Assembly (NCBI GenBank): GCA_964397255.1
Contig: CAYNHQ010000004.1
Location: 186,480 to 250,479, forward strand
Origin: an uncultured bacterium
GTDB taxonomy: Bacteria > Bdellovibrionota_G > JALEGL01 > DATDPG01
Direction: 5' to 3'
DNA length: 64,000 nt
Under the pieces are notes generated by a model. The model saw nothing but the letters and a program-made list of their open reading frames with translations. It did no database searches and was not told the DNA's origin. A program made the translations under genes and the position numbers. Every line of letters begins with the position of its first letter. Within the stretch, counting starts at the first letter, position 1. Positions 391-8,372 of this stretch are shown piece by piece.

Positions 391-467
391 GGCGGTGTAG
401 CTCAGTTGGTTAGAGCGAGGGTCTCATAAGCCCTAGGTCCGGGGTTCGATCCCCTGCGCCGCCACCA
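391..467 (+). tRNA. tRNA-Met (anticodon CAT), elongator type; tRNA-Ile2 (lysidine) cannot be excluded; CCA encoded
   Basis: Cloverleaf folded by hand. Acceptor GGCGGTG pairs CGCCGCC (G1:C72 is paired, so it is not an initiator), discriminator A73, CCA. D-arm GCTC-AGTTGGTTA-GAGC. Anticodon stem AGGGT/GCCCT with loop CTCATAA (CAT). T-arm CGGGG-TTCGATC-CCCTG. Confidence 0.85.
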
Positions 468-471
468 AATG
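452..471 (+). repeat. attL core: 20-bp sequence ccctgcgccgccaccaaatg at the tRNA 3' end, repeated exactly at 8353-8372
   Basis: Exact 20-bp direct repeat seen at both positions. Integrase gene lies immediately adjacent. Confidence 0.75.
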
Positions 472-565
472 CGTTCTAACTTCTCGTCATCAAAAAACTT
501 TTTCTTCAACGTAGGGTCAGTTGGGTAACTTTGGGTAACAGCTCGGGTTACTTTTACTTCGCTGC

Positions 566-1837
566 TTACGAATGTCGAACCAAAGAGATGACTTTGGCTC
601 CTTCCGGACTCGGAGGGTTCTCGGTCGGTTTATCTTTCCCCAACGCGAATTTTTCAATCGCGTTCCTTTGCGTTCTCTCTGCCACCTTCGCGTAATGCTG
701 CGTGACGGCGAGATCTCGGTGACCCATCGCTGCTTGCGCAGCCCGAATATCATTCGTCTGATCCGCATAAATTGAGGCGAATGTGTGACGCATGACATGC
801 GTTGACCTCACTGGAAGGCCCAGGGCCCGATACGCTTTCTTGTAGGCATTCTGGAGCGCCGGGTACTTGAGCATCTCCCCTTCTTTGTGAAAGACAAAGG
901 GGCCGTTCGTCCCTTTCAGTTTCCATTCGCTCAAGAGACGAACCAGACGTGACGGCATGACCACCTTTCGGAGGTCTCCCGTCTTGGTCCCCTCACGTAG
1001 GAACGGTTCCTTCGTTCGATACTGCCAGTAACAGACTCGCTTGATCTCCACGGCTGAATTCTGAAGATCGACGCAGTCCCACTGAAGACCGCACGATTCA
1101 CCGATCCGCGCGCCACAGAGCGCTTGGAACGACGCCAGGTAATAATAAACCGGCCGATGATGCGTGCGAAGACGTTCGAGAAATCTCTCTAAGTCCACCT
1201 CAGAAAGCGAAATGTCCGGCTTTCCCGGCTTCGCTTTAAAGAAAGCATCCCGTCGGTGTCGCTTGAGTATCGGAGGTTGAAACCTCGGATTCTTATACTC
1301 GCGATACCAGTTCAGTATCGTCATGAGCGTTTTTACCTCACGCAAGAACGACACGCGCGTTGCCTTCTTCGGGTAGGAAGGATCGATCATGTATTTCAAC
1401 CACCGATCGATATCTTCCGCCGAGAGATCCTCCACAGGAATTTCGAAGAGAGCTCCAAAATGAAAGATCTCCTTCGTTAAAGAATCCCACGTGCCTGGCG
1501 CGAATCTCGGCGGCTTTGACCACTCCCTCCAGTCCGCAACGAGGTTTTGTATTGTGTACGTGTTCTCTTTACGGATGGGAATCTCAGGATTGGATTCGGT
1601 TCTCCAGCCCCGAGCCTCATCGACCGTATGAAAAAGTCGGATCTGCTGGACGATTTTTCCCAGCATTTTCACCCGACGAACGGCGCGATAACTCTTCGCC
1701 TTACTTCCGACGACGGAGCGAAGATCGATGTAACGTTGTTTTTCCTCGCTCCAGACAGTGATCTTGAAGATCCCCGGATATCCCCGCACTTTGGTCAGAC
1801 GGCGTGTATCCCTCTTTCTGTTTTGATGATTATCCAT
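566..1837 (-). CDS. int: Tyrosine-type site-specific integrase (phage integrase family)
   Basis: C-terminal catalytic motifs ...ARIGESCGLQWDCVDL...HVMRHTFASIYA...GHRDLAVTQHYAKV (R, HxxR and Y signature). Adjacent to the tRNA attachment site. The first Met of the ORF may be upstream of the real start. Confidence 0.85.
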   Translation of the reverse strand: MDNHQNRKRDTRRLTKVRGYPGIFKITVWSEEKQRYIDLRSVVGSKAKSYRAVRRVKMLGKIVQQIRLFHTVDEARGWRTESNPEIPIRKENTYTIQNLVADWREWSKPPRFAPGTWDSLTKEIFHFGALFEIPVEDLSAEDIDRWLKYMIDPSYPKKATRVSFLREVKTLMTILNWYREYKNPRFQPPILKRHRRDAFFKAKPGKPDISLSEVDLERFLERLRTHHRPVYYYLASFQALCGARIGESCGLQWDCVDLQNSAVEIKRVCYWQYRTKEPFLREGTKTGDLRKVVMPSRLVRLLSEWKLKGTNGPFVFHKEGEMLKYPALQNAYKKAYRALGLPVRSTHVMRHTFASIYADQTNDIRAAQAAMGHRDLAVTQHYAKVAERTQRNAIEKFALGKDKPTENPPSPEGAKVISLVRHS

Positions 1838-2093
1838 ACTGCTGACTCCTCTCTGATAACCACCTGCGAATCACTTCGGAGCTGAAACGAACCATCCGCG
1901 GCGTAGGTCGGACCGTTGGGATCTTCCCCTGCCAGACTAAATTCCGAATGGTGCCTTTGCTGCATTGAAGGACTTCCGCCAATTCACTGACCGTAAGCAG
2001 TCGGCCTATTCCCTTTTCAAAGATCAAGCCCTCGCGAAGTTGAAATTTCCTCGGGCCGAATTGCGCGATCTTATCATCCTGCATGGGAAACAA
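1830..2093 (-). CDS. xis: AlpA/Xis-family excisionase-type helix-turn-helix DNA-binding protein
   Basis: 87 aa with MerR-like HTH LLTVSELAEVLQCSKGTIRNLVWQGKIPTVRP. Lies immediately upstream of int, overlapping it by 8 nt. This is the typical int-xis arrangement. Confidence 0.6.
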   Translation of the reverse strand: MFPMQDDKIAQFGPRKFQLREGLIFEKGIGRLLTVSELAEVLQCSKGTIRNLVWQGKIPTVRPTPRMVRFSSEVIRRWLSERSQQYG

Positions 2094-2114
2094 CCTTTCT
2101 TTTTCAAATCCTCA

Positions 2115-3488
2115 TCAGAAATCGATCTCCGGGCCGCTCTTTTTCTCGAGGCTCACGTCTCCGAAGAGCGTCAGCGTTTTTTCATTTTTTCGAACTGGTC
2201 GGCGAACCACTTCTGGTCTACGGGATTGAGATTGGGAATCACCTTCTCTTGAAACGTCCTCCAGAGAATCGCGTCCTGGTTCTCTTTCAGATAAAAACGC
2301 CAAATGGAACAGACGCTTACCGCCACCACCGCCATGGCGAGGTTCAGGAGAAAGAAGACCCCGATCGCTTTGAGCTTGATTCCGTTGTTGGCTTGTCGAA
2401 TATCCTCCAGAACGTCCTGCGCCCGTTCGCAGGAGGAGCGAAAGCTCTCGCCCGCCGATTGATAGGTTCGCTGTAGCTGCTGGCTTTCGACCTGCGATTT
2501 GTGGGTCATCTCCCTTAACGAATCGAGCAAGGGACAGATTTTTTTCTCGAAGTCGTTGGCCACGTTTTTGAAGCTCTCGTGAGAGATCTGGAGAAGGTAG
2601 GGCGGATCCTTTTCGGAACTGTTCGATGGCCTGGAAAAGTCTTGGGTCATCTCGGTTTTGGTCATAACTGATTCCTTTCTCTTGTTGTAAGCCGTGCCAC
2701 GTATAGGCTCGGCCGAGGTTACTTCCTTTCATCGATTCGCCGTCCAGACGAAAGCGAATTCCTGAAATGTGGCCGGTCTTGGCCTGGTACGGAGAGACAT
2801 CGACATGCTGGTCCTGAAGCCGTCCAATAAAATCACTCATCGTCGGCTTTCCCTGTGCCGCTTCGTCGATGATCTGTTGTAGTCGGAGCTTTGTACTTGG
2901 CTCGCCGGTCCGAAGAACCCTGTGCAACTCTCCGGAGGTCGGTGATCGTGAGAGCGATTCCCGGCTTGGCAGAACTCGGGTCAGTCCATGCTCCAATTCC
3001 AGGCTCCGAATGGTCGTTTCACTCCGGCGGTAGTCGTGACTTTCTGAAACGACTTTGCCGTCTATGCCGATTCGGTTTGCCACAATATGAATATGGTCGT
3101 GAGGCGTATCGGTGTGTCGGACGATCAGGAATTGCGATTTCTTAAATCCCATCCGGTCGAGATAGGTGTGCGCAACCTCGTTCCATTTCTGATCCGAAAG
3201 GCGCTCGCCGGGTGGTAACGAAAGGCTTGCGTGGTACACGGGCCTTTTCATGCTCGGTTTCAAATTCCGGACCGCTCCGAATTCGGCGATAAGGTCTTTC
3301 GGGGATCGACCGACCATGTTTCCGCCGATCTGCTGCGCACCCTCCTTCCCGAGAACATACTTAACGAGGCCGCCAAAACTCTTCCCTTTGGTCTGCTTAC
3401 CGATCACGCCAACCTCGATGCCAAAACGTTTAGCGCCAGGTTCTGAACGGCGGCGCTTATCTCTTCGAGCAGGCCGACGCCGACGCAA
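2115..3488 (-). CDS. mobA: Mobilization relaxase (MobA/MobL-type relaxase domain)
   Basis: Catalytic Tyr region GKSFGGLVKYVLGKEG and 3-His motif HTDTPHDHIHIVANRIG. The first ~28 codons of the ORF overlap the mobC 3' end, so the real start is probably near 3405-3420 (GTG or ATT). The C-terminal ~180 aa are low-complexity (R/S/G-rich) and overlap an alternative-frame ORF. Confidence 0.7.
   Translation of the reverse strand: MRRRRPARRDKRRRSEPGAKRFGIEVGVIGKQTKGKSFGGLVKYVLGKEGAQQIGGNMVGRSPKDLIAEFGAVRNLKPSMKRPVYHASLSLPPGERLSDQKWNEVAHTYLDRMGFKKSQFLIVRHTDTPHDHIHIVANRIGIDGKVVSESHDYRRSETTIRSLELEHGLTRVLPSRESLSRSPTSGELHRVLRTGEPSTKLRLQQIIDEAAQGKPTMSDFIGRLQDQHVDVSPYQAKTGHISGIRFRLDGESMKGSNLGRAYTWHGLQQEKGISYDQNRDDPRLFQAIEQFRKGSALPSPDLSRELQKRGQRLREKNLSLARFVKGDDPQIAGRKPAATANLSIGGRELSLLLRTGAGRSGGYSTSQQRNQAQSDRGLLSPEPRHGGGGGKRLFHLAFLSEREPGRDSLEDVSREGDSQSQSRRPEVVRRPVRKNEKTLTLFGDVSLEKKSGPEIDF
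2171..2665 (-). CDS. Hypothetical membrane protein encoded out of frame inside the relaxase gene (mobB-like nested ORF)
   Basis: 164 aa with balanced composition and a clear TM helix AIGVFFLLNLAMAVVAVSVCSIW. It lies entirely within the 3' third of the relaxase ORF in another frame. Confidence 0.3.
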   Translation of the reverse strand: MTKTEMTQDFSRPSNSSEKDPPYLLQISHESFKNVANDFEKKICPLLDSLREMTHKSQVESQQLQRTYQSAGESFRSSCERAQDVLEDIRQANNGIKLKAIGVFFLLNLAMAVVAVSVCSIWRFYLKENQDAILWRTFQEKVIPNLNPVDQKWFADQFEKMKKR

Positions 3489-3829
3489 CTCGCCTGCCCG
3501 GAATGAATGGCCTTTGTCAGCTGGTTGAGGTTGTTCCCGACGCGAGCAAGCTCTTGATACGCGGATCTATTGATCTCGGGTGCGGGAAGAGGCGGAAGTC
3601 TACGCTTCAATACCGCCCGCCGGACGTATTCGCTCAGGCTTAGGTGGAAAGCTCGAGCGCTCATTCCGATCTCTTTTCGTTCTTCCGGCGTGAACCGAAT
3701 GGGAACGACGCGAGTCCTCCCGCGAACGGAGTGAGTGGGACCGCAAATCGACGTAGTCGGTTTGCATGGCTCGCTACTCACTTCTTCCCACATTCTTTCC
3801 CCCTGCTTCTCTTCCCATTTCTTTTTCAT
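3404..3829 (-). CDS. mobC: Relaxosome accessory protein MobC (ribbon-helix-helix mobilization protein)
   Basis: VVPIRFTPEERKEIGMSARAFHLSLSEYVRRAVL...YQELARVGNNLNQLTKAIHSGQ matches the MobC signature (RxTxEE...SxSEYIR...GNNLNQ). Start taken at the internal ATG at 3827-3829 (MKKKWEE). The upstream part of the 276-aa ORF overlaps a plus-strand gene and is judged non-coding. Confidence 0.7.
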   Translation of the reverse strand: MKKKWEEKQGERMWEEVSSEPCKPTTSICGPTHSVRGRTRVVPIRFTPEERKEIGMSARAFHLSLSEYVRRAVLKRRLPPLPAPEINRSAYQELARVGNNLNQLTKAIHSGQASCVGVGLLEEISAAVQNLALNVLASRLA

Positions 3830-3926
3830 CTTTTTGTCTTTTCTCTCTACGCATCTGTGATATAACACATTTGAGGTACACCGTGTCAACGCATAGTTAC
3901 GTGATAAAATATAACGTTTTAAGCCT

Positions 3927-4760
3927 ATGAATGTATTCAAAAATTCCGGGCAGCCTCCGGAGCCAGGTGTCGCCCAGGCGGAGAAGCCTCGATCGAACTT
4001 GGTCGGAATGAATGTACGGCTGGAGCCATCCCTCAAAAAGGCGATCGAGGCAGTAACTTGGGAATCCGGAGTCTCCCCAGGCGGGCTCATTCGAAGGCTC
4101 TCGTTCCAGGACATCACGAGAAATGTTGCGAACCGATGGAAGGCCCCGGAGTGGATCAAAGAGGAGCCACGTGCAGCGAACCTGAATTTTCTTGTGCTTG
4201 CCCGACATTCGGAAGCGATTCGACTTCGAGCCAAGGAACTAAATTTAAGCCTGACCGACTACATTCGCTCGCTCGCCATTTTCCAGGTTTTTGAAGCTGA
4301 AAAAGTGTTCAAAGAAAAGGGTCAAAAATTAACAATCTTGGACGAAACCTCAAGACACTATTGGCCAACCCTCGAAGCAAAATCGAAAAAGAGTTGGCTA
4401 TCGAAATGGACAAAAAGCAAGAGAGACCCAGACCTTCAAGACCAATTTCTACGCGACGTCGAGGGCGTTGACATCGCCGCCGGATACACCACGTACAAAG
4501 GCAAGAAGATCATCGAGCTTGTGAAAGGCGAGGCAGAAAAAGAGGGCTTAAGTCTTGCGGCCTATCAAAAGAAGCTCGTGTATGAAGACCTGGAACGAAA
4601 ATATGGGATGAAATTTGTGGCAGAAATTCTCGACGAACCGTTTGAGCAATGGGAGATGTATGATGATTTTATAAAGCGTGTGATCGATGATACCGGAAAG
4701 GTGAATATGGAATTCCTGAAACTCAAATCCTCGGCAAAATCGCCGCATACGAAGAAGTGA
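3927..4760 (+). CDS. Hypothetical protein with two N-terminal ribbon-helix-helix (CopG/MetJ-like) motifs
   Basis: MNVRLEPSLKKAIEAV... and FLVLARHSEAIRLRAKELNLSLTDYIRSLAI resemble RHH beta-strand plus helix units. The K/E-rich C-terminal ~150 aa is of unknown function. 16-nt gap to the next gene on the same strand. Confidence 0.5.
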   Translation: MNVFKNSGQPPEPGVAQAEKPRSNLVGMNVRLEPSLKKAIEAVTWESGVSPGGLIRRLSFQDITRNVANRWKAPEWIKEEPRAANLNFLVLARHSEAIRLRAKELNLSLTDYIRSLAIFQVFEAEKVFKEKGQKLTILDETSRHYWPTLEAKSKKSWLSKWTKSKRDPDLQDQFLRDVEGVDIAAGYTTYKGKKIIELVKGEAEKEGLSLAAYQKKLVYEDLERKYGMKFVAEILDEPFEQWEMYDDFIKRVIDDTGKVNMEFLKLKSSAKSPHTKK

Positions 4761-4776
4761 TGGAGATCAAAACTCA

Positions 4777-6243
4777 GTGACTCTGAATGAACTACGCCGC
4801 CTTGTCCGTGAAGGCGAAGGCCCCGGACTGGAGTTCAAACGAACGACGGGAGAGCTGAGCCGCGGTTTAGAAACGATATGTGCTTTTTTGAATACGGAAG
4901 GTGGACAGGTTTTGTTCGGCGTCGGCCCCAAGGGGACGATCGAAGGGCAGCAAGTCTCATCCCAAACCCTGCATGAAATCACCCAGGCATTCAGCCGATT
5001 CGAACCGCCGGCGGTGATCAAGATTGAACGGGTCAAGATCGGAAAAGGGCGCGAAATACTTGTTCTAAACCCGAAAATCGATTCGGAGTCGCTGCCGTTC
5101 ACGTTTGATGGTCGCCCCTATGAACGAGTCGGAAACACGACTCGGAAGATGCCGCAGCACCGATATGAGTCCCTTCTTTTTGAACGGGCTCACGCCACGC
5201 GGCGATGGGAGAATCAACCCGCCGAGGGCGTGCGTCTCAAAGACCTCGATCACGAGGAAATTTTAGCAACAAGGGAAGCCGCCATTGCGCAACGGCGGAT
5301 CTCCGCAGGAACCAGCCGGGATATCGGAGACATCCTCGACCGACTCGGCCTTCGCGTCGATGGAAAGATCACGCAGGCAGCGCAAGTTCTCTATGGGACG
5401 AAGTTCTTGCCTTACTATGCCCAGTGCCTTCTAAAAATGGGAAGGTTTCGGGGAACAAAAATCACAGGGGAAATCGTCGACAACAAGCAAGAACATTTGC
5501 ACGCTTTCGCGGTCGTACGGGAGGGGATGGCATTTTTAGACCGAACGCTTCCGCTCGGCGCGCGTTTCCCCGAGGGAAAGATTTTCCGGGAAGACCGCCT
5601 TCCGATTCCTCCGAATGCGCTCCGAGAAATCCTTCTCAATGCGGTGATGCATCGGGATTATTCCGATTATGGTGGACACATTGCGATCGCGATTTTCGAT
5701 GACCGCGTCGAAATCAGGAGTGCAGGAAAGCTTCCGGCCGGCGTGACCGTAGATCAACTATCAGGTCCTCACCTTTCAAAACTCCGTAACCTTCTCATCG
5801 CTGGAACGTTTCACCGGACCGGGGCGGTCGAAATCTGGGGTCGCGGCACAGACCGAGTCGTGGACGAGTGCAAACAGCATGGAATCGATCCCCCGATTTT
5901 TGAGGAACGACAAGGGTTCCTGATTGTAACGTTTCGGGCGCAGGTCGTCGTTACCTCGCGACAGCTAGAGTCACAGCCAGAGTCACAGCTAGAGTCGCGG
6001 CCAGAGTCGCTCGATAGACGGGTTTTAATTTTCCTCGAGAACGGTCCTTTGGGAAAAGCGGAAATTGCGGCGCGTATGAGCCAAAAGAAAGTCTCTGGCC
6101 AGCTCAACAAGGTGATTCGGGAACTCGTGAGCGAAGGCCTAATCGTGTATACGATTCCTGAAAAGCCAAACAGCCGGTTGCAGCGATATCAGATAACCAA
6201 AGTAGGCAAAAAACTCTTGGAGAAGAACGGTGAAAGCGAATAG
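4777..6243 (+). CDS. Schlafen-like AlbA_2 (putative DNA-binding) + HATPase_c_4 (RecG C-terminal-like ATPase) + C-terminal winged-HTH protein
   Basis: N-terminus LEFKRTTGELSRGLETICAFLNTEGGQVLFGV (AlbA_2-like). Central LREILLNAVMHRDYSDYGGHIAIAIFDDRVEIRSAGKLP (HATPase_c-like). C-terminus DRRVLIFLENGPLGKAEIAARMS... (wHTH). Family assignment made from memory of motifs. Confidence 0.65.
   Translation: MTLNELRRLVREGEGPGLEFKRTTGELSRGLETICAFLNTEGGQVLFGVGPKGTIEGQQVSSQTLHEITQAFSRFEPPAVIKIERVKIGKGREILVLNPKIDSESLPFTFDGRPYERVGNTTRKMPQHRYESLLFERAHATRRWENQPAEGVRLKDLDHEEILATREAAIAQRRISAGTSRDIGDILDRLGLRVDGKITQAAQVLYGTKFLPYYAQCLLKMGRFRGTKITGEIVDNKQEHLHAFAVVREGMAFLDRTLPLGARFPEGKIFREDRLPIPPNALREILLNAVMHRDYSDYGGHIAIAIFDDRVEIRSAGKLPAGVTVDQLSGPHLSKLRNLLIAGTFHRTGAVEIWGRGTDRVVDECKQHGIDPPIFEERQGFLIVTFRAQVVVTSRQLESQPESQLESRPESLDRRVLIFLENGPLGKAEIAARMSQKKVSGQLNKVIRELVSEGLIVYTIPEKPNSRLQRYQITKVGKKLLEKNGESE
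5961..6008 (+). repeat. In-frame 12-bp tandem repeat x4 (acagctagagtc / acagccagagtc / acagctagagtc / gcggccagagtc) encoding QLES-QPES-QLES-RPES
   Basis: Seen directly in the sequence. Lies between the ATPase core and the C-terminal wHTH of the 4777-6243 gene. Confidence 0.9.
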
Positions 6244-6495
6244 GCGACTGAATTACGGCGCGGAATAGCGACCGTTTTGCAATGCCTCTCCTTTACACCT
6301 GGCCACCGGCCGCTGAAGTCTCCCCATTGATCCGCGACAGTTTCGCAGAGACATTCACTCCGCAGCCCTCGCCCTCAAAGAAAAAATATTAATGATATTA
6401 ATTGCTTATATCTGAAATCCATTCTCTATAAATGGCCTATTGAATGCATGGAAATAGTGTGACAATATGCGTCAATTTTTCGAACGAGGTGTGAG

Positions 6496-7299
6496 ATGAG
6501 AACGAAGTGGATGGCAATAACGATGGCTGCTCTGGCGACCGCGTCGGCGCAAGCGGCTTCTGAAAAATCCGATCGGATTTGTGGGTTTCCCGGCGAAGCG
6601 GGTCACAATATTGAGCAGAGAATTGCGGATTGCAAAGTGGCCTACCCATCCGATTCAACACGGAAGTCCGACACGTCGAACGCAACCATCTCGTTGGTGA
6701 CTCGCTTGATTTCAAACAGTGGAAAGTCGGAAGATGTTTGGAAAGAGATGCCTAGCGGCCTTCTATGGTCGGATATCATTAAGCGAGTGACTGATCCCCC
6801 GAGCGACAAAGCACCTGATTCATCGGAGAAGCCCAAAACTACTTATTCATGGAATGAACTCATAGAGTGGGCAAAGTTGAAAACGGAGCCAGGTTCGTTG
6901 GAGTTTTTGGATGACGTAGAAACATATAGATGGGTCGAGAGGAAATATTCTGGAGGCAAATCCGTAAAATTTGATGACCCCGCTGGGAAAACCGTTTGCC
7001 AACTCGCGACTGAGAAGTTGGCCGCAATGGGGGGGCTTAAAGATGTTCATTGGCATCTTCCGACAGCTGACGAGCTAGCCCACATCGGAAGGGTGGATCA
7101 GAGCCGTTACAACGAATACGAAAAGAAAAATATCACAGGGAATGGGCTTTTTGCGAAACTTCCGAACATGGCCGATCATTGGTTTTGGTCCTCGTCGCCT
7201 GCCGGTGGCGTCAACGCGTGGGGGCTCAGCGGGAGCTTCGGCGATGTCGTCAGCGACGACCGCGACTACGACGGCGCCGTACGTTGCTTGGGCCGCTAG
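6496..7299 (+). CDS. Secreted DUF1566 (Lcl C-terminal domain-like) protein with signal peptide
   Basis: Signal peptide MRTKWMAITMAALATASAQA. C-terminal motifs VHWHLPTADEL...FWSSSPAGGVNAWGLSGSFGDV resemble DUF1566. AT-rich promoter region upstream. Confidence 0.5.
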   Translation: MRTKWMAITMAALATASAQAASEKSDRICGFPGEAGHNIEQRIADCKVAYPSDSTRKSDTSNATISLVTRLISNSGKSEDVWKEMPSGLLWSDIIKRVTDPPSDKAPDSSEKPKTTYSWNELIEWAKLKTEPGSLEFLDDVETYRWVERKYSGGKSVKFDDPAGKTVCQLATEKLAAMGGLKDVHWHLPTADELAHIGRVDQSRYNEYEKKNITGNGLFAKLPNMADHWFWSSSPAGGVNAWGLSGSFGDVVSDDRDYDGAVRCLGR

Positions 7300-7322
7300 G
7301 CGTGGGAAGGGTCAGCTTAGAA

Positions 7323-7366
7323 GGGGACTATCAGTCCGTGATGGATTGATAGTCCCCTTTGATTTT
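7323..7366 (+). terminator. Rho-independent terminator after the DUF1566 gene
   Basis: Perfect 11-bp inverted repeat ggggactatca / tgatagtcccc (loop 13 nt) followed by tttgatttt. Confidence 0.7.
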
Positions 7367-7496
7367 CACCCGTTTTCGATGGATCGAAATCTCTTCGGGA
7401 ATCGCACGGAACTCGGTGGTCCAATCGACCAGCCGATCGAGGGATTCTTTCCGAAGTCGATAGCTTTGGGCATGAATCAGATAGCCGAGGCAGGAA

Positions 7497-8078
7497 TTGA
7501 GTTTTGCCAGGCGGCTCTCAGTTATTTTCGGCCAGCTGGGAAACGCGAGCGCCTGGGTACCCGGCAACATCACGGATAATGTGTACGCCGAAATCTTATT
7601 CCTACGCGAGCTGGAGAAAAAGGAGACTGCGCCCACTGGCAGCGCAACAGTTGCTGAAAAAGTTAAAGGACCCAAGAACATTCAAGAGGCTATTGCCAAT
7701 TCTATTCGATTCCTAACGCGAGAATTAAGCGGACATGTGAAACTCTTGAGCCAGCACAATCAGCCCAAGGAGCTCTATAAAGAGATGGCAATTGAACAAT
7801 CCGGGTATGGGATGATCTGTCCTTTAGGAGATGTTGGCCAATGTCTCCTCTTACCAAAGGCCATAAAGGACGTTCTTCCGATTCAGATGCAGCATCTCAC
7901 GCCCGAAGTGGAAAAGTTTGTAAAGGCCACTACCGGGAAACTCATATATTACGACCCCGCACTCTTCGCCCAACGGGTCAGAGAAGCGAACGAGAAACAT
8001 CAGCGTGAGATCATTCGCGAAGGTCAATTCGCCGCCGAAGCGCAACAAAAAGCAGTCGATCGGCAATTGAAGTGGTAG
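7497..8078 (+). CDS. Hypothetical protein (island cargo); true start uncertain
   Basis: 193-aa ORF with protein-like composition from ~VYAEILFLRELEKKE onward. No recognisable domain. Overlaps a probably spurious minus-strand ORF. Confidence 0.35.
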   Translation: MSFARRLSVIFGQLGNASAWVPGNITDNVYAEILFLRELEKKETAPTGSATVAEKVKGPKNIQEAIANSIRFLTRELSGHVKLLSQHNQPKELYKEMAIEQSGYGMICPLGDVGQCLLLPKAIKDVLPIQMQHLTPEVEKFVKATTGKLIYYDPALFAQRVREANEKHQREIIREGQFAAEAQQKAVDRQLKW

Positions 8079-8352
8079 CCCGACTTCATTTGGATCATTA
8101 AGAAGAACAATTGACCAGCGGGCTAGTCGATAGCGAGGTTAACTTGCCCATACTTCGTCTTTTTGGGATTCACACGAGGGATACCATTTGGTTCGCGGTA
8201 ACCCTTTCCCGTGTCTTGGGTAATTTTGGGTAACAGGCCGACTGATACGGAGTGAAATGGGTGCTACTCAGTGATACTGCAGGTTTTGTTATCTGCTTGA
8301 TGTTATTGTTTTTGCCTTACGATCCGAACCGTTGCGCGCCCGCCCCTGCAGG

Positions 8353-8372
8353 CCCTGCGCCGCCACCAAATG
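8353..8372 (+). repeat. attR core: second copy of the 20-bp tRNA 3'-end sequence
   Basis: Exact match to 452-471. Confidence 0.75.

What the first reader, a model, noticed from the sequence alone, without database searches (positions are those of the whole stretch)
2115..3488. Out-of-frame ORF nested within the relaxase gene (mobB-in-mobA-like arrangement) or relaxase frameshift
The relaxase catalytic domain (Tyr and HxDxxHxH motifs) occupies the 5' ~800 nt. The ORF then continues for ~550 nt as low-complexity R/S/G-rich sequence. A 164-aa ORF (2171-2665) sits in another frame over exactly this stretch and encodes a well-composed protein with a TM helix. Known small mobilization systems carry accessory genes nested out of frame inside the relaxase gene (RSF1010 mobB in mobA; ColE1 mbeB/mbeD in mbeA). 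Alternatively the relaxase is frameshifted and decaying.
Basis: partly seen in the sequence, partly recalled or inferred. Interest (0 to 1): 0.55.

Follow-up and report, generated by a model that had tools for sequence, protein, structure and literature searches.

The report
Hidden mobB gene inside relaxase gene
The second reading frame inside this DNA-transfer (relaxase) gene is a real, conserved gene for a small membrane protein distantly related to MobB of plasmid RSF1010, a known kind of gene-within-a-gene that gene finders almost always miss.

Summary
A 164-aa ORF (2171-2665, minus strand) lies in the +1 frame inside the relaxase gene, whose true extent is 2115-3407 (430 aa, GTG start).

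The relaxase is not frameshifted. Its low-complexity tail has in-frame homologues and ends in a conserved C-terminal motif.

ORF length alone proves nothing: given the tail's amino acids, P is 0.06-0.15. Comparison with other loci settles it:
- All 16 distinct relatives with this tail type carry the same +1 ORF.
- It starts at the same ATG, inside the relaxase Tyr codon, behind a Shine-Dalgarno-like motif.
- Substitutions between close relatives switch phase to the +1 frame within the overlap (p 1e-6 to 1e-11).
- Both frames stay stop-free against expectation.

The nested proteins form a family: a helical region with an I-x-P-L motif, one transmembrane helix, and often a W-R-T-F tail. They are remote homologues of IncQ MobB (hhalign 92%, reciprocal HMM hits, a bridging sequence). 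RSF1010 mobB sits at the same place and in the same frame of mobA.

The gene lies in a 7.9-kb integrative mobilizable element in tRNA-Met. It is a new member of a known kind. The family is almost absent from protein databases: 3 of 1.84 billion representatives.

The parts
2115..3407 (-). Relaxase gene (mobA-like), 430 aa. GTG start at 3407-3405, TGA stop at 2117-2115.
   Evidence: ORF. PF03432 E 1.7e-36. Homologues start M/V-IGKQTKG and are 420-470 aa. The GTGA overlap with the upstream gene's stop is read directly.
2643..3407 (-). Conserved relaxase domain, residues 1-255. Contains catalytic Tyr17 and the HxDxxHxHxH metal motif, and ends in the motif G-I-S-Y-D-Q-N-R-D.
   Evidence: Invariant columns in alignment A1. 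Substitutions between close relatives fall mainly on codon position 3, as in a normal single-coding gene.
2171..2665 (-). Nested mobB-like gene, 164 aa, in the +1 frame of the relaxase gene. This is the 495-nt dual-coding stretch.
   Evidence: ORF. Conserved in 16 distinct related loci with the same start. Phase switch of substitutions. Homology to IncQ MobB. A gene caller called it as a 159-aa product (P0121).
2673..2677 (-). Shine-Dalgarno-like AAGGA, 7 nt upstream of the nested ATG. It is built from the relaxase codons for E-K-G.
   Evidence: Sequence. A GGAG/AGGA/GAGG motif sits 7-11 nt before the ATG in all 17 loci listed.
2516..2539 (-). Nested protein residues 43-50 (ICPLLDSL): the family's I-x-P-L motif, matching IEPLAQSM of RSF1010 MobB.
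   Evidence: Alignments A2 and A3. hhalign pairs this motif with MobB residues 19-26.
2300..2368 (-). Nested protein residues 100-122 (AIGVFFLLNLAMAVVAVSVCSIW): predicted single transmembrane helix.
   Evidence: Kyte-Doolittle maximum 2.51. A hydrophobic helix sits at the equivalent place in all family members and in MobB. AlphaFold2 models it as helix.
2195..2272 (-). Nested protein residues 132-157 (AILWRTFQEKVIPNLNPVDQKWFADQ): conserved post-membrane W-R-T-F...P motif. Present in 10 of 16 family members and absent from IncQ MobB.
   Evidence: Alignments A2 and A3. Also present in the free-standing relative in L151.
2115..2170 (-). Single-coding 3' end of the relaxase gene: the last 18 residues, ending KKSGPEIDF. 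This is the conserved basic C-terminus with a G-x-D/E-hydrophobic-x-F/R end, possibly a secretion signal.
   Evidence: C-terminal motif shared by homologues. Similar ends in RSF1010 MobA (GGPDFSM) and ColE1 MbeA (DGPSLGW). The signal function is inferred.
3404..3829 (-). Relaxosome accessory gene (NikA-like ribbon-helix-helix plus MobC motif), 141 aa. Its stop overlaps the relaxase start.
   Evidence: PF21983 E 1.2e-16 and PF05713 E 4.6e-7. Gene call of 141 aa in L001.
1830..2093 (-). Excisionase-type HTH gene immediately downstream of the relaxase gene.
   Evidence: PF12728 E 3.6e-13 and TIGR01764 E 2.7e-10.
566..1837 (-). Tyrosine integrase gene of the element.
   Evidence: PF00589 E 1.9e-21.
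391..471 (+). tRNA-Met gene (391-467) and left attachment repeat CCCTGCGCCGCCACCAAATG (452-471).
   Evidence: ARAGORN. Direct-repeat family D2.
8353..8372 (+). Right attachment repeat: a 20-nt exact copy of the tRNA-Met 3' end. It sets the element length at about 7.9 kb.
   Evidence: Direct-repeat family D2. Housekeeping haem-synthesis genes lie beyond, from about 10.3 kb.

Best explanation
Positions 2171-2665 (minus strand) are a genuine second protein-coding gene, overprinted in the +1 frame on the disordered C-terminal tail of the relaxase gene.

The gene lies in a 7.9-kb integrative mobilizable element: tRNA-Met, integrase, excisionase, relaxase with the nested gene, and a NikA/MobC-like accessory gene.

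The nested gene is translated independently. Its own ATG is formed by the relaxase codons TAT-GAC, and it follows an AAGGA ribosome-binding site formed by the relaxase E-K-G codons.

It encodes a 164-aa protein with four parts:
- a helical N-terminal region of about 95 residues, probably cytoplasmic;
- an I-x-P-L motif;
- one transmembrane helix;
- a short conserved C-terminal segment.

It is a distant member of the MobB family known from IncQ plasmids (RSF1010/R1162).

By analogy with R1162 MobB (inferred, not shown here), it probably anchors in the inner membrane and binds the relaxase. It would help form or stabilise the relaxosome at oriT. It would also help hand the relaxase-DNA complex to the coupling protein and type IV secretion system of a helper conjugative element.

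The relaxase tail is kept open. It evolves as a loosely constrained linker that carries a conserved basic C-terminal end lying just beyond the overlap.
For: **Shown by tool results**

1. The +1 ORF spans 71-90% of the tail (120-177 codons) in every relative with this tail type, including AT-rich ones. In cyanobacterial relatives it spans 10-25%, and there the +1 frame stops 2-17 codons after the same Tyr codon.
2. In all 17 loci the ORF starts at the ATG in the Tyr codon at relaxase residue 246/247, preceded by an SD-like motif. In 10 loci a +1-frame stop lies directly upstream.
3. Differences between close pairs shift from relaxase codon position 3 in the domain to position 1, which is nested position 3, in the overlap.
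   - L003/L087: [10,9,43] against [16,10,4], p 2.5e-6.
   - L027/L042: [19,11,69] against [59,31,24], p 8e-12.
4. On the same DNA, nested-frame proteins are more alike than relaxase-frame tails. L027/L042 are 73.5% against 55.9% identical. Eighteen pairs reach 30 bits in the nested frame, against 3 in the relaxase frame.
5. With the nested protein held fixed, the relaxase frame should carry 2-9 stops but has none in 15 of 15 loci.
6. Within the window, codon-position GC changes from (0.60, 0.42, 0.60) in the domain to (0.68, 0.50, 0.39) in the tail. The +1 frame scores positive for the window's codon usage.
7. Homology to MobB:
   - hhalign gives 90.8% against RSF1010 MobB and 92.1% (E 6e-7) against five IncQ MobB sequences.
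   - The family HMM hits IncQ MobB at 25-29 bits, against 16.4 bits for the best reversed decoy.
   - The IncQ MobB HMM hits the nested ORF of L147 at E 1.5e-15, and L083, L086, L116, L127, L130 and L139 more weakly.
8. RSF1010-type mobB is nested in the +1 frame from MobA codon 250.

**From the literature.** mobB lies inside mobA/repB in another reading frame, and MobA, MobB and MobC are needed for mobilization (PMC2200642; PMC5572225).
Against: - There is no expression evidence (protein, ribosome profiling or transcript) for this locus or any relative.
- Within this single window the ORF length is not significant (P 0.06-0.15).
- Sequence similarity to MobB is remote: 16-17% identity over about 90 columns that include a transmembrane helix, which can inflate profile scores.
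- The window's own copy is not hit directly by the IncQ MobB HMM at E 10 or better. The link runs through the family profile and intermediates.
- The relaxase is of a different Pfam family (PF03432) from RSF1010 MobA (PF03389). Function transfer is therefore by analogy.
- The C-terminal W-R-T-F segment has no counterpart in MobB.
- The AlphaFold2 model is of low confidence (pLDDT 68, pTM 0.27).
Confidence: 0.87

Rival explanations
1. The +1 ORF is a by-product of composition. The relaxase tail is poor in Leu/Ile/Val/Met codons ending in TA or TG, so the +1 frame rarely acquires stops and a long non-coding ORF appears by chance.
For: With the tail protein held fixed, only 2-3 stops are expected in the +1 frame, and an open run of 156 codons or more occurs in 6-15% of synonymous randomisations. 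Per-locus permutation p-values in relatives are often only 0.02-0.4.
Against: - The start codon, SD motif, length class and transmembrane helix are conserved across loci whose tails are barely alignable.
- Substitution phase switches to the +1 frame.
- +1-frame proteins are more conserved than the relaxase-frame tail.
- The family shows homology to a characterised protein family, MobB.
- In L151 a related gene stands free downstream of the relaxase gene.
Confidence: 0.04
2. The relaxase gene is frameshifted, by sequencing error or decay. The true C-terminus of the relaxase is the +1-frame sequence, and the in-frame R/S/G-rich tail is meaningless read-through.
For: The in-frame tail is of low complexity, and the codon-usage score of the +1 frame equals or exceeds frame 0 in the tail. 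The gene calls on the Logan contig L001 omit the relaxase here and take the nested ORF.
Against: - Homologues of 420-470 aa have the same kind of in-frame tail, and the window's tail ends in their conserved motif (SGPEIDF against GPEIDR, LEIDF, GIDFF).
- The relaxase frame is stop-free through the overlap in 15 of 15 loci against an expectation of 2-9 stops.
- In 10 of 17 loci a +1-frame stop lies immediately upstream of the nested ATG, so no simple fusion is possible there.
- An independent assembly of the same sequence is identical over the relaxase N-terminal domain (L001, 100% identity).
Confidence: 0.02
3. The +1 frame is reached by programmed ribosomal frameshifting from the relaxase frame. 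This would give a second, membrane-anchored relaxase isoform rather than, or in addition to, an independent small protein.
For: In the window the +1 frame is open from relaxase residue 226, 21 codons before the ATG. Dual products from one mobilization gene are known in RSF1010, where MobA/RepB and RepB' arise by internal initiation.
Against: - The ATG with an SD motif is conserved in all loci, and a stop lies directly upstream of it in most.
- No conserved slippery sequence was seen.
- MobB of RSF1010 is annotated as a separate product.
- L151 encodes a free-standing relative.
Confidence: 0.03
4. The nested gene is real but is not a relaxosome or secretion helper. It might serve, for example, as an entry-exclusion or membrane immunity protein in the manner proposed for ColE1 MbeD.
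For: It is a small membrane protein with a segment after the transmembrane helix (W-R-T-F...P) that IncQ MobB lacks. ColE1 carries nested genes annotated as mobilization/exclusion proteins.
Against: Sequence homology points to MobB, not to MbeB (7.8%) or MbeD (0.7%). Strict co-location with the relaxase tail across distant lineages suggests a function tied to the relaxase.
Confidence: 0.1

Closest known systems
RSF1010/R1162 (IncQ) mobB nested in mobA/repB
   Same: - It is encoded wholly inside the relaxase gene in the +1 frame. It starts just after the relaxase domain, at MobA codon 250 against codon 247 here, over an R/G-rich linker.
- It is a small protein (137 against 164 aa) with an I-E-P-L-A motif, a helical region and a K-L-W transmembrane helix.
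- Remote homology is detectable.
- The relaxase C-terminus ends in a similar G-P-D-F motif.
- A MobC-type accessory gene lies upstream.
   Different: - The relaxase domain is PF03432, not PF03389 MobA_MobL, and there is no primase domain.
- The nested protein has an extra conserved C-terminal segment.
- The element is an integrated IME with integrase and excisionase, not a plasmid.
- The mobC-like gene is co-directional and overlaps the relaxase start, rather than being divergent.
- Identity to MobB is only about 16%.
ColE1 mbeB and mbeD nested in mbeA
   Same: - The relaxase is of the same Pfam family (PF03432), with an R/G/E/S-rich tail.
- mbeB is nested in the +1 frame from about MbeA residue 229.
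- MbeB is 172 aa with a helical N-terminus, a transmembrane helix near residue 90-110 and a C-terminal segment.
- The upstream MobC-type gene has the same LxxxGNNLNQ motif.
- The MbeA C-terminus is DGPSLGW.
   Different: - There is no significant sequence similarity to MbeB (hhalign 7.8%) or MbeD (0.7%), and no HMM hit.
- ColE1 has two nested genes; here there is one.
- MbeA has the HEN variant of motif III (PMC12857230), whereas this relaxase has three histidines.
Relaxase-primase fusions of PF03432 type with a nested mobB-like ORF (metagenomic loci L147, L158, L156, L127)
   Same: - The relaxase domain is of the same family, 43-47% identical.
- The nested ORF uses the same +1 frame and the same start at the Tyr codon.
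- The L147 ORF is hit both by this family's HMM (2.4e-13) and by the IncQ MobB HMM (1.5e-15).
   Different: These relaxases are 548-808 aa, and some have RepB-primase-like C-terminal domains as in RSF1010. Their nested proteins lack the W-R-T-F C-terminal segment or have it in altered form.

Membership tests
MobB (IncQ-type mobilization protein) | Gene lies entirely within the relaxase gene, in a different reading frame, just downstream of the relaxase domain. | tested here: met
   Nested ORF 2171-2665 lies inside 2115-3407 in the +1 frame, from relaxase codon 247. RSF1010-type mobB is in the +1 frame from MobA codon 250.
MobB (IncQ-type mobilization protein) | Detectable sequence homology to RSF1010/R1162 MobB. 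| tested here: met
   - hhalign gives 90.8% for family against RSF1010 MobB, and 92.1% (E 6e-7) against five MobB sequences.
- The family HMM hits four IncQ MobB at 25-29 bits, against 16.4 bits for the best decoy.
- The reciprocal MobB HMM hits family members L147 (1.5e-15), L083, L086 and L116.
- The homology is remote. The window copy itself is linked only through the profile.
MobB (IncQ-type mobilization protein) | Small protein with a hydrophobic membrane-spanning segment near the C-terminus, preceded by a helical region carrying the I-E-P-L-A motif. | tested here: met
   Residues 100-122 are hydrophobic (KD 2.51). ICPLLDSL at residues 43-50 aligns with IEPLAQSM. The predicted structure is all-helical.
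MobB (IncQ-type mobilization protein) | Partner relaxase is a MobA_MobL (MOBQ1) relaxase fused to the RepB primase. | tested here: not met
   The window relaxase is PF03432 with no primase domain. RSF1010 MobA is PF03389 plus PF16793 and PF22448. Intermediates with PF03432-type domains and primase-like C-termini exist.
MobB (IncQ-type mobilization protein) | Stabilises the relaxosome or stimulates nicking at oriT, and is required for type IV transport of the relaxase. | not testable with these tools
   This is a functional property known from R1162 genetics (Parker and Meyer 2007, cited in PMC3297438; PMC2200642). It needs mobilization assays.
MbeB (ColE1-type nested mobilization protein) | Sequence homology to MbeB. 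| tested here: not met
   hhalign probability is 7.8%. There was no HMM hit to L162 ORFs and no MbeB-type Pfam family among the matches listed.
MbeB (ColE1-type nested mobilization protein) | Nested in the +1 frame in a PF03432 relaxase gene after the catalytic domain, followed by a second nested gene (mbeD). | tested here: inconclusive
   The arrangement and frame are the same. There is no room for a second nested gene, since only 56 nt remain after the nested stop.
MobA/VirD2-like relaxases (Pfam PF03432) | N-terminal catalytic Tyr and a histidine triad, scoring above the Pfam gathering threshold. | tested here: met
   125.8 bits against a cutoff of 24.6. Y17, H103, H105 and H107 are invariant in A1.
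Integrative mobilizable element (IME) | Integrase and excisionase plus a relaxase and accessory gene, flanked by att repeats at a tRNA gene, without its own type IV secretion system. | tested here: met
   - tRNA-Met at 391-467.
- 20-nt exact repeats at 452-471 and 8353-8372.
- int, xis, relaxase and NikA/MobC genes.
- Four of the other large ORFs within 467-8372 were scanned and show no T4SS or coupling-protein domains; two matched other families and two had no Pfam match. Smaller ORFs were not scanned.

The most novel reading that the evidence does not exclude
The out-of-frame mobB-in-relaxase overlap may be an ancient dual-coding module rather than a peculiarity of IncQ plasmids. It keeps the same junction and the same +1 frame across two relaxase Pfam families (PF03389 and PF03432). 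It occurs across plasmids and integrated elements of Pseudomonadota, Bdellovibrionota/Oligoflexia and Planctomycetota. That would make it one of the oldest and most widespread overlapping gene pairs in bacteria.

Under this reading, the disordered relaxase tail, its conserved G-P-D-F-type C-terminus and the membrane-anchored MobB-like protein form one co-evolving docking device for foreign type IV secretion systems. Annotation pipelines would systematically miss the small partner.
Probability: 0.4. Interest if true: 0.6.

Novelty: new member of a known kind. Interest (0 to 1): 0.5.

Why it matters
It gives a clear comparative demonstration that about 500 nt of a bacterial gene code for two proteins at once. 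The small membrane protein is the more constrained partner, and the relaxase tail is a tolerated but deliberately open read-through.

It extends the MobB family beyond IncQ plasmids. The family now reaches integrated mobilizable elements of predatory and environmental bacteria, and a different relaxase family.

It exposes an annotation blind spot. Only three members were found among 1.84 billion representative proteins. The source contigs known for them are short fragments (625, 2,486 and 5,226 bp; the last, L001, is the only one with gene calls examined, and there the relaxase was not called). Surveys of mobilization modules (MOB typing, IME discovery) therefore under-count accessory genes.

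It also offers a clean genetic handle. TAT to TAC at the Tyr codon removes the nested start without changing the relaxase.

Tried and rejected
1. **ORF length as evidence.** Three null models, holding either the relaxase tail protein or its codon composition fixed, gave P 0.06-0.15. I dropped it as an argument on its own.
2. **Direct database homology for the 164-aa protein.**
   - The word-indexed search found only itself.
   - The profile search of 5.8 billion clusters found only itself.
   - Exhaustive phmmer found two more uncharacterised proteins on short contigs.
   - tblastn against 72,556 plasmids found nothing.
   - Pfam and NCBIfam gave only noise.
3. **ColE1 MbeB and MbeD as homologues.** Rejected on sequence; only the arrangement is shared.
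4. **Presence of an ATG at the Tyr codon as a discriminator.** Rejected, because 40 of 86 loci without a nested gene also have TAT-G there. What differs is that their +1 frame stops within 2-17 codons.
5. **Structure prediction.** With a three-sequence alignment the model was one long helix of low confidence (pLDDT 68, pTM 0.27). I ran no fold search, since matches would be meaningless.
6. **An oriT-like inverted repeat upstream of the accessory gene (3780-3960).** Only a 9-nt palindrome was found. oriT was not located.
7. **Literature on MobB function.** The primary papers (Parker and Meyer 2007; Meyer's IncQ review) are not held. I cited only secondary statements.
Full report
**What is in the sequence**

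On the minus strand an ORF runs from 3488 to 2115, and a 164-aa ORF (2665 to 2171) lies inside it in another frame.

The outer ORF is a relaxase:
- Pfam PF03432 matches with E 1.7e-36.
- Tyr17 and the H98-x-D-x-x-H-x-H-x-H107 motif are invariant in an alignment of 31 homologues.

Its real start is the GTG at 3407, giving 430 aa. Homologues begin M/V-IGKQTKG. That GTG overlaps the TGA of the upstream NikA/MobC-type accessory gene (3404-3829) as GTGA.

Conserved homology ends near residue 255, at the motif G-I-S-Y-D-Q-N-R-D. The remaining 175 residues are rich in R, L, G and S.

The inner ORF starts at the second base of the Tyr codon of that motif (TAT GAC read as ATG AC), so it is in the +1 frame. 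AAGGA lies 7 nt upstream. The ORF ends 56 nt before the relaxase stop. Its product has ordinary composition and a strongly hydrophobic stretch at residues 100-122.

**Context**

- A tRNA-Met gene lies at 391-467.
- A 20-nt exact copy of its 3' end recurs at 8353-8372.
- Between the two repeats lie:
  - a tyrosine integrase and an excisionase-type HTH gene;
  - the relaxase and the accessory gene;
  - a divergent second RHH protein;
  - a Schlafen/AlbA_2-type ATPase;
  - an Lcl_C-domain protein.
- Haem-synthesis genes follow from about 10.3 kb.

The locus is therefore a 7.9-kb integrative mobilizable element.

**Is the relaxase frameshifted? No.**

The closest homologues (44-64% identical over their aligned part, 420-470 aa) all have a poorly conserved, low-complexity tail of similar length. 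The tail is followed by a conserved basic end: G-x-D/E-hydrophobic-x-F/R, for example RGPDLGR, GIDFF and GPEIDR. The window's protein ends SGPEIDF in frame.

**Is the inner ORF more than chance?**

By length alone, no. Stops in the +1 frame need NTA or NTG codons followed by A or G, and the tail has few of them. With the tail protein held fixed, 2-3 stops are expected. A run of 156 open codons or more arises in 6-15% of randomisations.

I therefore fetched 160 related loci from genome and metagenome collections and compared them. Six results follow.

1. **The ORF is conserved only with this tail type.** Every locus with this tail type (16 distinct sequences, from Bdellovibrionota, Oligoflexia, Bacteriovoracia and Planctomycetales bins and from unbinned metagenome contigs) has the +1 frame open over 71-90% of the tail. 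This includes AT-rich genes with GC3 of 0.25-0.3. Cyanobacterial relatives, whose tails differ, have 10-25%. In them the +1 frame stops 2-17 codons after the same Tyr codon.
2. **The start is conserved.** In all 17 loci the ORF begins with ATG at relaxase residue 246/247, preceded by GGAG, AGGA or GAGG at 7-11 nt. In 10 loci a +1-frame stop lies directly upstream, which rules out a fusion there. GC-rich members use TAT at this Tyr although they prefer TAC elsewhere.
3. **Substitutions switch phase.** In close pairs they fall on relaxase codon position 3 in the domain, but on position 1 (nested position 3) in the overlap.
   - L003/L087: [10,9,43] against [16,10,4], p 2.5e-6.
   - L027/L042: [19,11,69] against [59,31,24], p 8e-12.
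   - Three further pairs give p 4e-8 or lower.
4. **The nested frame is the better conserved.** For the same DNA, nested proteins are more alike than relaxase tails: 73.5% against 55.9% in L027/L042. In all-against-all BLASTP, 18 pairs reach 30 bits in the nested frame, 3 in the relaxase frame and 1 in the third frame.
5. **The relaxase frame is also maintained.** With the nested protein held fixed and its synonymous codons permuted, the relaxase frame should carry 2-9 stops. It has none in 15 of 15 loci, and 13 of the 15 loci have p 0.011 or lower.
6. **The window shows the same signal internally.** Codon-position GC changes from (0.60, 0.42, 0.60) in the domain to (0.68, 0.50, 0.39) in the tail. 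This is the pattern expected if relaxase position 3 is nested position 2. The +1 frame scores positive for the window's codon usage.

Both frames are therefore maintained. The nested frame is the more constrained at the protein level.

**What the nested protein is**

The 16 proteins, plus two found by exhaustive search, share one architecture:
- an M-x-K-T-E start;
- a helical region of about 90 residues with an I-x-P-L-x-E motif;
- a (I)T-x-K-L-W transmembrane helix;
- in 10 of the 16 aligned proteins, and in both proteins found by search, a segment W-(R/E/K)-x-F...P...Q after the membrane helix.

AlphaFold2 gives an all-helical model of low confidence. No Pfam or NCBIfam model matches.

The family is nearly absent from protein databases:
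- A profile search of 5.8 billion clusters returned only the window's own product.
- phmmer against 1.84 billion representatives returned that product plus two proteins, on contigs of 625 and 2,486 bp.

On the Logan contig identical to this locus, the gene calls took the nested ORF and omitted the relaxase. A plausible explanation, which I did not test, is that gene callers cannot report both genes.

**Comparison with known systems**

I fetched ColE1 and an RSF1010-type IncQ plasmid.

*ColE1.* mbeB (172 aa) and mbeD lie in the +1 frame inside mbeA, starting at about residue 229. They overlie an R/G/E/S-rich tail that ends DGPSLGW. MbeB has the same architecture, but its profile similarity is insignificant at 7.8%.

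*IncQ plasmid.* mobB (137 aa) lies in the +1 frame from MobA codon 250, over an R/G-rich linker, and MobA ends GGPDFSM. MobB reads ...AEQIEPLAQSMATL...GWHWKLWLTVMLASMM..., which matches the family's two motifs. The evidence for homology is:
- hhalign gives 90.8% against the single sequence and 92.1% (E 6e-7, 91 columns) against five IncQ MobB sequences.
- The family HMM hits four of the five IncQ MobB at 25-29 bits (the fifth scores 14.3), when searched against 6,659 six-frame ORFs. The best reversed decoy scores 16.4 bits.
- The IncQ MobB HMM hits the nested ORF of L147 at E 1.5e-15, and L130, L127, L083, L116, L139 and L086 more weakly, with no decoy hits.

L147 and L158 are PF03432-type relaxases fused through an R/G-rich linker to a RepB-primase-like domain. 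This is the RSF1010 architecture, and they carry the nested ORF at the same Tyr codon. They bridge the two groups.

L151 has a related 313-aa gene standing free downstream of a relaxase whose Tyr codon is TAC.

**Mechanism**

*Shown:*
- Two overlapping coding frames are maintained by selection.
- The nested gene has an independent start with an SD motif.
- It encodes a membrane-helix protein homologous to MobB.
- The relaxase tail acts as a loosely constrained linker, and its conserved C-terminal end lies just outside the overlap.

*Inferred from RSF1010/R1162:* there mobB is translated from another frame of mobA, and MobA, MobB and MobC are needed for mobilization (PMC2200642; PMC5572225). 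MobB is also required for the relaxase's type IV transport signals (Parker and Meyer 2007, cited in PMC3297438). By analogy, the nested protein would sit in the inner membrane and bind the relaxase. It would promote relaxosome formation and hand-over to a helper element's coupling protein. The basic C-terminal end of the relaxase may be part of the transport signal. This last point is my inference, from the shared motif and from my own knowledge of C-terminal type IV signals.

**Novelty and verdict**

The arrangement is textbook for RSF1010 and ColE1, so this is a new member of a known kind.

What is new:
- The MobB family and its exact nesting extend to a different relaxase Pfam family.
- They extend to integrated elements.
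- They extend to distant phyla.
- The family is essentially unannotated.

My confidence that this is a real MobB-family gene is about 0.87. My confidence in the specific MobB-like function is lower, about 0.6, because nothing here tests function.

Noticed in passing
window 391-471 and 8353-8372; also 521-541 and 8216-8236: The relaxase sits in a 7.9-kb integrative mobilizable element inserted at the 3' end of tRNA-Met. It is bounded by a 20-nt exact repeat, CCCTGCGCCGCCACCAAATG. A second repeat, TTGGGTAAYTTTGGGTAACAG, lies just inside each end and may be an integrase arm-type site.
   Followed up: partly
window 2115-2170; L163 4590-4630; L162 3700-3733: Relaxases that carry a nested gene share a C-terminal end of the form basic run, then G-(P)-(D/E/S)-(F/L/I)-(G/D/S)-(F/R/M/W). 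Here it is SGPEIDF, in relatives RGPDLGR, GPDFSF and GIDFF, in RSF1010 MobA GGPDFSM, and in ColE1 MbeA DGPSLGW. It always lies just beyond the overlap. It could be a common type IV secretion or coupling-protein signal.
   Followed up: partly
L001 2499-2714 and 3295-3774 (window about 3235-3450 and 2171-2650): The gene calls on the identical Logan contig omit the 430-aa relaxase altogether. They report an antisense 71-aa ORF plus the nested 159-aa ORF. No protein closer than 59% identity to this relaxase was found in the 5.8-billion-cluster collection.
   Followed up: partly
L151 2961-3899: In one metagenomic relative the MobB-like gene is not nested. It stands free, directly downstream of a 423-aa relaxase. 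The product is 313 aa with extra coiled-coil repeats, a transmembrane helix and the same W-R-T-L...P motif. This may show the state before or after overprinting.
   Followed up: no
L147 452-2863, L158 654-2804: These are PF03432-type relaxases fused through an R/G-rich linker to a RepB-primase-like domain, with a nested MobB-like ORF. This is the RSF1010 MobA/RepB architecture built on a different relaxase family.
   Followed up: partly
window 5961-6008: Four or so tandem copies of a 12-nt unit (ACAGCYAGAGTC) lie inside the Schlafen AlbA_2 / HATPase_c_4 / Fic-like_C gene (4777-6243). They encode the repeat QLESQPESQLESRPES between its domains.
   Followed up: no
window 3927-4760: A 277-aa protein is transcribed divergently from the mob operon. 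It has a weak NikA-like ribbon-helix-helix match (E 7e-7) and possibly a second RHH-like region (DUF6290, E 0.003). The 97-nt gap between it and the accessory gene is the likely place for oriT and promoters, but no clear inverted repeat was found there.
   Followed up: partly
L116 2908-3618 and 3644-4144: In this relative the relaxase frame stops after 236 residues, while the MobB-like ORF downstream is intact (E 2e-25 to the family HMM). The relaxase may be decaying or misassembled while the small gene is retained.
   Followed up: no
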